DNA of 64,000 nt from Octopus vulgaris (Eukaryota): contig OX597838.1 of NCBI GenBank assembly GCA_951406725.2, forward strand, positions 37,324,001 through 37,388,000, read 5' to 3'. Positions 52,394 through 52,943 of the stretch are shown piece after piece (within the stretch, counting starts at the first letter, position 1; each line of letters starts with the position of its first letter). The notes under the pieces are model-generated. The model made no database searches, had not been told where the DNA came from, and saw nothing but the letters and a program-made list of their open reading frames with translations. The position numbers were made by a program, and so were the translations under genes.

Positions 52394-52840
52394 ATATAAT
52401 GGTTGTATACTGTCAATCTAACAAGAACGTGACAGTAGGGGGTACACCACCGTTATATAGCCCTAGGAGGCATCGAACGCCTCCTGACAGCTTCGACACA
52501 TTTTATCCTGTGTCCTTATATCCCCATACGAAGGGGAGACAAACACCCCCAACCGCCGGAACTGCATCTAGGGACACCGTGTTTCAGGATCATTGTCCTT
52601 CATCGGCCGATGAAGGACAATGATCGGCCGATGAAGGACAATGATCCTCAAACACGGTGTCCCTAGATGCAGTTCCGGCGGTTGGGGGTGTTTGTCTCCC
52701 CTTCGTATGTGTATATAAGGACACAGGATAAAATGTGTCGAAGCTGTCAGGAGGCGTTCGATGCCTCCTAGGGCTATATAACGGTGGTGTACCCCCTACT
52801 GTCACGTTCTTGTTAGATTGACAGTATACAACCATTATAT
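52394..52840. mobile_element. Near-perfect 447-bp palindromic insert centred on a hammerhead-like motif
   Basis: Arms of ~210 bp with only a few mismatches. Centre catcggccgatg with a 21-nt duplication. Minus 52571-52608 reads gg ccgatga agga caatga tcct GAAAC acggt GTC cc. Confidence 0.9.
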
Positions 52841-52890
52841 CGCTCCACCACCGTACACCTCTCTACGAGAGATTTAGAAACTCAATATTT

Positions 52891-52943
<53 letters not shown>

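What the first reader, a model, noticed from the sequence alone, without database searches (positions are those of the whole stretch)
52394..52893. Young 447-bp palindrome whose symmetry axis lies in the ribozyme itself
The arms are nearly identical and turn at catcg|gccgatg, exactly at the 5' edge of the HHR core, with a 21-nt stutter (atcggccgatgaaggacaatg). One arm extends ~50 bp further to the element terminus. In the 16.5-kb and 29.6-kb cases the fold-back also occurs at or just 5' of the ribozyme. Inference: reverse transcription stalls or ends near the ribozyme and self-primes, a mechanistic clue to inverted PLE insertions.
Basis: partly seen in the sequence, partly recalled or inferred. 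Interest (0 to 1): 0.7.

Follow-up and report, generated by a model that had tools for sequence, protein, structure and literature searches.

The report
Twin-primed retrozyme palindrome; ribozyme axis coincidental
This palindrome is one young copy of a 364-base ribozyme-carrying mobile repeat, likely pasted in by Penelope-type enzymes that copied its RNA from both ends of a DNA cut; in sister copies the turning point is spread along the repeat, so its position at the ribozyme here is probably chance.

Summary
The palindrome (210 of 213 pairs), 21-nt stutter and 53-nt one-sided tail are confirmed. It is one insertion, into (TA)n, of a non-coding 364-bp tandem repeat carrying a type I hammerhead: a retrozyme with the known Penelope-like 'inverted copy plus tail' layout.

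In 79 two-armed sister copies, arm ends are no commoner in the ribozyme (27 of 85) than just 3' of it (81 of 288; p=0.59). None of 34 near-symmetric axes lies at the core's 5' edge. Fold-back from the tailed arm cannot explain 35 of 79 copies, whose inverted arm holds sequence the tailed arm lacks.

Best reading (inferred): both target ends prime reverse transcription at two fixed starts 53 nt apart, probably on one RNA (alleles agree in 22 of 24), and the tips join by microhomology, here GGCC. The inner-start arm usually ends slightly further along (23 vs 6). A few arms end exactly at the predicted ribozyme cut; this copy does not.

The scan already reached twin priming on other DNA, including this genome. 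No independent reads span the junction.

The parts
52375..52398 (.). Left (TA)n target tract; overlaps the first bases of the inverted arm (TATA microhomology)
52394..52608 (-). Inverted arm, unit positions u53 to u267 (u = distance from the 3' terminus), starting at the family's fixed inner start site
   Evidence: 23 of 96 matches end at the same site (query 215-216)
52567..52608 (-). Truncated hammerhead in the inverted arm (core, stems II and III, 3' strand of stem I; 5' strand of stem I lost)
52605..52608 (.). Self-complementary GGCC, a 4-nt microhomology shared by both arm tips; symmetry centre 52606/52607
52605..52625 (+). 21-nt restart (stutter): first copy of u267-u247, bounded by a 3-nt ATC repeat
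52626..52893 (+). Direct arm, u267 to u0, ending at the family's outer start site
52626..52667 (+). Truncated hammerhead in the direct arm: core C3 at 52628, predicted cut after 52661, G12 changed to C at 52649, 5' strand of stem I lost
52841..52893 (+). 53-nt one-sided tail between the two start sites
52894..52939 (.). Right (TA)n target tract
52255..52375 (-). Neighbour, not part of the insertion: a 5'-truncated copy of a second hammerhead family (the family of the 29.6-kb palindrome) abutting the same TA tract

Best explanation
The palindrome is one insertion of a 364-bp non-coding hammerhead repeat (a retrozyme), likely mobilised in trans by a Penelope-like element through twin priming, and its axis at the ribozyme is probably chance. 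Shown: a tandem 364-bp unit; two fixed ends 53 nt apart; (TA)n targets; arm tips spread along the unit; tips joined at short microhomologies (GGCC here). Inferred: (1) The endonuclease cuts both strands in (TA)n. (2) One DNA end primes reverse transcription at the inner start (u53) and the other at the outer start (u0), probably on the same uncut, multimeric or circular RNA. (3) The outer-start enzyme likely trails the inner-start one, or both stop at the same RNA end, so the tips are often 0-24 nt apart. (4) The two cDNA 3' tips anneal at a microhomology and copy each other. Here both ended at GGCC, which pairs with itself and gives a spacer-less palindrome. (5) The 21-nt stutter likely arose by slippage between two ATC triplets during fill-in.
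For: Fixed inner start: 23 of 96 matches in a search not selected on that end stop at query 215-216. Each start works alone: among 113 young loci, 15 have only a u53 arm and 12 only a tailed arm (two of the 15, L101 and L128, are older-subfamily fragments dropped later). In 35 of 79 two-armed copies the inverted arm holds more than 20 nt absent from the tailed arm; the inverted tip lies more than 10 nt further in 54, the tailed tip in 18, and they are within 10 nt in 7. Tips are coupled: 31 of 79 lie within 20 nt against 12.8 under permutation, p = 5e-5. The offsets are +1..+24 in 23, 0 in 5 and -24..-1 in 6 (p = 0.002). The second family shows the same sign: +11, +1, +7, +10, +17, +8 against one -3 (BLAST ends). 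Microhomology of 2 nt or more occurs in 40 of 61 filler-free junctions against 16.7% by chance. At a site polymorphic about 57:43, both arms carry the same allele in 22 of 24 loci (p = 3e-5); arms otherwise mutate independently (54 left-only, 47 right-only, 4 shared rare changes). Restarts like the stutter occur at the junction in L041 and L142. An anole PLE protein nicks and extends both strands, is predicted to be a dimer, and starts reverse transcription at two sites that bound the tail (PMC11167929).
Against: No intermediate or biochemistry is available for this family, and the autonomous partner was not found. Allele agreement could come from one dominant source locus rather than one RNA molecule; L093 is discordant and L065 mixed. 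Of 28 filler-free near-symmetric junctions, 17 leave a loop of 3 nt or more, so snap-back of the inner-start strand also fits them. The 18 of 79 copies with the tailed tip further along need overtaking or priming on another unit. Arms end less often 5' of the hammerhead than in it (p = 0.026), so the ribozyme region is not wholly neutral.
Confidence: 0.65

Rival explanations
1. Snap-back variant: the inner-start cDNA folds back on itself at a 1-4 nt match, copies itself, and the new strand anneals to the separately primed tailed cDNA. It still needs two priming events and is not tied to the ribozyme.
For: It predicts the positive offset (23 vs 6) and the allele agreement. 17 of 28 filler-free near-symmetric junctions leave a loop of 3 nt or more. 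Offsets that are small only modulo 364 (L047, L099, L167) fit local capture. Self-priming was proposed for PLE junction palindromes (PMC3846280).
Against: 11 of those 28 junctions leave less than 3 nt of loop, including five zero-offset ones on self-complementary words, the same kind as this window's GGCC. Microhomology is as common at distant joins (21 of 33) as at near ones (19 of 28).
Confidence: 0.15
2. Twin priming on two different RNA molecules from the same active source locus, with tips coupled only by local microhomology.
For: L093 carries different alleles in its two arms. An earlier scan note (e1-9972483, unchecked) reports arms from different subfamilies in another family.
Against: It does not explain the excess of near-equal tips or their one-sided offset. 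The L093 difference lies in a CpG and may be later decay.
Confidence: 0.1
3. One reading: reverse transcription of the tailed strand stalls or ends at the ribozyme and self-primes, copying back to give the inverted arm.
For: This copy turns at the core's 5' edge, and the 16.5-kb copy turns inside its hammerhead. Fewer arms end 5' of the hammerhead (p = 0.026). Four tips sit exactly at the predicted cut, u231 (p about 0.003, noticed after the fact).
Against: There is no excess over the 92 nt 3' of the ribozyme (p = 0.59), and 0 of 34 near-symmetric axes lie at u260-271. The commonest tip is u187 in a TA-rich stretch (9 of 185 tips). The inverted arm exceeds the tailed arm in 35 of 79 copies, and the offset has the wrong sign. 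In the second family 8 of 30 inner arms end in the hammerhead and the rest spread from v170 to v586. This axis is 33-36 nt from the cut site.
Confidence: 0.06
4. Assembly or sequencing artefact (a read-through hairpin).
For: No listed contig piece from four independent runs spans the junction.
Against: The arms differ at 3 sites. The inversion stops at the same base as in dozens of unlinked loci and excludes flanking DNA. The same layout recurs in two other families. The assembly has 227 contigs for 2.8 Gb.
Confidence: 0.03

Closest known systems
Metazoan non-LTR retrozymes (PMC7229834, passages; bioRxiv 10.64898/2026.07.22.740005, part 1 of 5)
   Same: Non-coding tandem unit of a few hundred bases (364 bp here) with a type I hammerhead in each unit: 6-bp stem I, 4-bp stem II, palindromic stem III suited to dimers. 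Proposed to be non-autonomous PLE derivatives.
   Different: The core reads CCGAUGA (C at position 4) in most copies. Most insertions carry an inverted arm and a tail; the word 'inverted' does not occur in PMC7229834. Circular RNA and self-cleavage are untested here.
Insertions of endonuclease-positive Penelope-like elements with inverted pLTR and one-sided tail (PMC3846280, PMC8557442, passages)
   Same: Partial tandems, an adjacent inverted 5'-truncated copy, a tail on one end only, palindromes at the junction, (TA)n targets.
   Different: No RT or GIY-YIG ORF. The tail is 53 nt rather than 30-40. Those papers attribute the junction palindromes to self-priming and the tail to endonuclease resolution; the counts here favour two primings with tip-to-tip joining.
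Anole Poseidon PAc in vitro (PMC11167929, parts 1-2 of 4)
   Same: Two internal RT start sites bounding the tail, both target strands cut and extended, AT-rich target, ribozyme cleavage not needed for insertion.
   Different: In the parts read it gives no model for inverted copies and found no reads ending at the ribozyme cut; here a few genomic arms end exactly there.
L1 twin priming (Ostertag and Kazazian 2001; title seen in a reference list; paper not held; mechanism recalled)
   Same: Both target ends prime; the cDNAs are joined by microhomology.
   Different: As recalled, in L1 the second primer lands at variable internal sites and the two parts do not overlap. Here both starts are fixed and both arms copy the same stretch, which gives palindromes.

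Membership tests
Non-LTR retrozyme | Short head-to-tail tandem unit | tested here: met
   364-bp period; arms up to 857 nt of tandem in L055, also L006, L017
Non-LTR retrozyme | Type I hammerhead in each unit | tested here: met
   Core and three helices assigned by hand; 96% of cells paired and one two-sided change in each helix across subfamilies (10 related sequences, so weak as statistics). Rfam gave no hammerhead hit, the minimum-energy fold shows stems I and II but not III, and position 4 is C.
Non-LTR retrozyme | No protein coding | tested here: met
   Unit read by eye; no ORF scan was run on it. 364 bp cannot hold RT.
Non-LTR retrozyme | Expressed as self-cleaved linear and circular RNA | tested here: inconclusive
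   Contigs of three runs only guessed to be RNA cover the unit, the one recorded RNA run gave none, and contigs cannot show ends or circles. A few arm tips at the predicted cut are indirect support.
Autonomous Penelope-like element | ORF with telomerase-like RT and GIY-YIG endonuclease | tested here: not met
   None in the unit; 0 of 30 GIY-YIG loci match the unit
PLE-type insertion architecture | Inverted 5'-truncated copy plus one-sided tail | tested here: met
   86 of 113 young loci are two-armed; 53-nt tail
PLE-type insertion architecture | Microsatellite (TA)n target | tested here: met
   Window and most loci viewed; partly built into the terminus patterns, but also seen in the pattern-free hits
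PLE-type insertion architecture | Target-site duplication | tested here: inconclusive
   Cannot be read inside (TA)n
PLE-type insertion architecture | Mobilised by an identified PLE protein | tested here: inconclusive
   The genome holds intact 781-aa RT/GIY-YIG frames, but no partner sharing ends with this unit was found
MITE or fold-back DNA transposon | Fixed internal structure copied as a unit | tested here: not met
   Junctions differ from copy to copy; only a few loci share one (L146/L153; L106/L142/L143)

The most novel reading that the evidence does not exclude
Penelope enzymes integrate as a pair that copies one RNA twice: a leading RT from the inner start and a trailing RT from the outer start that displaces the first cDNA and halts up to about 24 nt behind it. 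The inverted copy, the tail and the small central asymmetry would then be the footprint of one dimeric reaction. The few arms ending at the predicted cut would record hammerhead cleavage in the germ line.
Probability: 0.35. Interest if true: 0.65.

Novelty: new member of a known kind. Interest (0 to 1): 0.33.

Why it matters
The locus itself is ordinary: a dead copy with both ribozymes broken. The family is useful as a natural experiment on an open question, how Penelope-like elements make their inverted copies; PMC8557442 calls these features still undefined. It argues against ribozyme-directed self-priming and gives three bench-testable numbers: two fixed starts 53 nt apart, same-allele arms in 22 of 24 copies, and a one-sided 0-24 nt offset between tips. 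I found no printed twin-priming model for Penelope elements in three searches (the library lacks most subscription papers, and supplements were not read). The scan itself has reached that reading many times before.

Tried and rejected
Rfam found no hammerhead at gathering thresholds in the window or at E up to 5 in three loci; the motif was assigned by hand and by covariation.

Search for the autonomous partner: 30 of 150 GIY-YIG matches were fetched and none matched the unit. A loose end upstream of the ribozyme in two runs led to one isolated 67-nt hammerhead fragment, not a coding element. The 4.2-kb copy L098 holds captured genes, not RT.

Logan contigs of X1-X4 could not confirm the junction. 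X15-X17 and X20 could not show expression, ends or circles.

The third family (16.5-kb type, first 30 of 344 matches) is too heterogeneous for a clean test. BLAST ends against one reference range from 24 to 688 nt, and several stop at subfamily breaks.

An apparent cluster of tips at u277 was partly an artefact of a private variant in my reference copy; it shifted once common alleles were allowed.

Gene conversion between arms as the cause of allele agreement was rejected: there are 101 arm-specific changes against 4 shared rare ones.

Rows dropped: of 151 parsed loci, 38 were set aside as older subfamilies, low coverage or too short. Of the 113 left, 8 more were dropped before the position tests: the window, L098 (cargo), L101 and L128 (older fragments), L153 and L143 (duplicate junctions), L156 and L145 (atypical). 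L090 was dropped from the two-armed set for a 74-nt filler. The allele tests used all 113, window included. The Ostertag and Kazazian paper was not held.

Full report
Observation. Self-BLAST shows 52394-52840 as a 447-bp inverted match. Outside the stutter, 210 of 213 positions pair. The centre is CATCGG|CCGATG at 52606/52607, followed by a second copy of the 21-mer that begins GGCC. The right arm runs 53 nt further, and both ends meet (TA)n.

What the element is. Searching the genome (G000; window at C25:37324001-37388000) with the right arm gave 96 matches from 40 scored of 2233 candidates, many at 98-100% identity. The copies show a 364-bp head-to-tail unit. I number the unit by distance from its 3' terminus (u0). 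It carries a type I hammerhead: stem I at u271-266 with u231-226, core CCGAUGA from u265, a 4-bp stem II, a palindromic stem III, and a predicted cut between u232 and u231. Older subfamilies show a two-sided change in each helix. Rfam does not detect it. This fits a metazoan non-LTR retrozyme (PMC7229834, passages; bioRxiv 10.64898/2026.07.22.740005, part 1 of 5; hammerhead form as in PMC4209133, part 1 of 4). The layout of inverted copy plus one-sided tail in (TA)n is the described Penelope-like insertion (PMC3846280, passages; PMC8557442, passages). In this copy both ribozymes are broken, because the junction removes the 5' strand of stem I. Earlier scan notes call the genome an octopus; I did not test that.

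Sampling. To avoid selecting on the ribozyme, I listed loci by terminus patterns: 146 inner-end matches, the first 100 listed; 79 for the young subfamily; and 69 outer-end matches. I fetched 139 of these loci and reused 11 that appear. With the window, 151 were parsed against a natural copy, L055. Of these, 113 are young; 105 remain after eight drops, and 79 of those are two-armed (drops are listed under Tried and rejected).

The share of arms ending per 46-nt bin was 30 of 196 (u88-133), 44 of 166, 37 of 122, 27 of 85 (hammerhead, u226-271), 12 of 58 and 6 of 46. Hammerhead versus the 92 nt 3' of it gives p = 0.59; versus the 92 nt 5' of it, p = 0.026. Both tips lie in the hammerhead in 4 of 79 copies and either tip in 19 of 79. 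Of 34 near-symmetric palindromes, 5 have their axis in the hammerhead (14.8% expected), 0 at u260-271 and 8 at u175-190. The commonest tip is u187, in a TA-rich stretch (9 of 185). In the family of the 29.6-kb case (first 30 of 113 matches), inner-arm tips spread from v170 to v586, with 8 of 30 in the hammerhead. The family of the 16.5-kb case was inconclusive, although a related palindrome in L209 turns about 115 nt 5' of its ribozyme. The axis position in this window is therefore what chance allows.

Results that favour a role for the ribozyme. Four tips sit exactly at u231, the predicted cut: L007, L057, L099 and L113. This has p about 0.003, was noticed after the fact, and L057 is ambiguous through stem I microhomology. 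Tips at or within one base of the cut also occur in family 2 (L241, L254, L260) and family 3 (L290) among the 15 loci I inspected. Some templates were probably ribozyme-cut. This window's tips lie 33-36 nt upstream of the cut, so its template was uncut or re-ligated (inference).

Mechanism. The inner end is fixed: 23 of 96 matches stop at query 215-216. Each end also occurs alone, with 15 inner-only and 12 tail-only loci of 113. In 35 of 79 two-armed copies the inverted arm holds more than 20 nt that the tailed arm lacks, which a fold-back of the tailed strand cannot make. Tips are coupled (31 within 20 nt against 12.8 expected), and the inner-start tip is usually slightly ahead (23 vs 6, with 5 ties). 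Fold-back of the tailed strand predicts the opposite sign. Joins use microhomology (2 nt or more in 40 of 61 filler-free joins against 16.7%; a further 18 have filler). Arms share the allele at a common polymorphism in 22 of 24 loci while otherwise diverging independently. The anole PAc protein cuts and extends both strands and starts at two sites that bound the tail (PMC11167929, parts 1-2 of 4). The simplest reading is twin priming: two target ends, two fixed starts, probably one RNA, and tips joined end to end. Here both tips ended at GGCC, which pairs with itself. Snap-back of the inner-start strand remains possible for 17 of 28 filler-free near-symmetric junctions but fits poorly for 11, and it still needs two primings.

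The stutter. Joining at GGCC places ATC just before the axis and another ATC 21 nt later, so a slip between them duplicates the 21-mer. Similar restarts at the junction occur in L041 (about 74 nt) and L142 (about 56 nt), and templated fillers in L046. Off-centre opening of a later cruciform (recalled mechanism) would give the same sequence; I cannot tell the two apart.

Limits. No independent reads span the junction. Expression and circular RNA were not shown. The autonomous partner was not found. Family 2 and 3 tips are BLAST ends on 80-90% identical copies. Supplements of the cited papers were not read and may bear on prior description.

Novelty. The element type and the layout are known. 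Three searches found no printed twin-priming model for Penelope elements. My reading was written before the look-up, but the scan had already reached it in other genomes and on other pieces of this one; those notes are unchecked and are not support. What this family adds is a direct negative test of the ribozyme-axis idea and the one-sided tip offset. Verdict: a real feature, a new member of a known kind, interest 0.33.

Noticed in passing
L098:500-5000 (G000:C10:26828488-26832774): A 4.2-kb insertion of this family that carries, between its arms, two tandem copies of a gene for a roughly 430-aa protein with a CCHC knuckle (it looks like a LINE ORF1; label recalled, not searched). It appears to be cargo moved in trans.
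   Followed up: partly
L261:1510-1630 (G000:C30:4513903): An isolated hammerhead-only fragment of this family (67-nt match) flanked by a 13-bp direct repeat; contigs of two runs guessed to be RNA hold it.
   Followed up: partly
window 16330-16660: The 16.5-kb palindrome has the same layout: a tail of about 90 nt on the left arm, a long-stem-II hammerhead, and a short central stutter.
   Followed up: partly
window 29443-29880: The 29.6-kb palindrome belongs to a second family (at least 625 bp) with two ends about 140 nt apart; its right arm continues to about 29880.
   Followed up: partly
window 29318-29443, 12-140, 4160-4440, 14934-15018, 28706-28879, 48760-49042: Further self-inverted stretches in the window, not examined.
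   Followed up: no
L146, L153; L106, L142, L143: Unlinked loci share an identical inversion junction, suggesting that some inverted composites were themselves re-copied or that the junction recurs at a hot spot.
   Followed up: no
L207, L212: An abundant, apparently intact PLE family (781-aa open frames, RT plus CX4CXXC linker plus C-terminal GIY-YIG; Neptune-like by the linker, clade not tested). Its ends do not match this repeat.
   Followed up: partly
L046, L147: Two copies in which both arms end at the inner start (no tail on either side).
   Followed up: no
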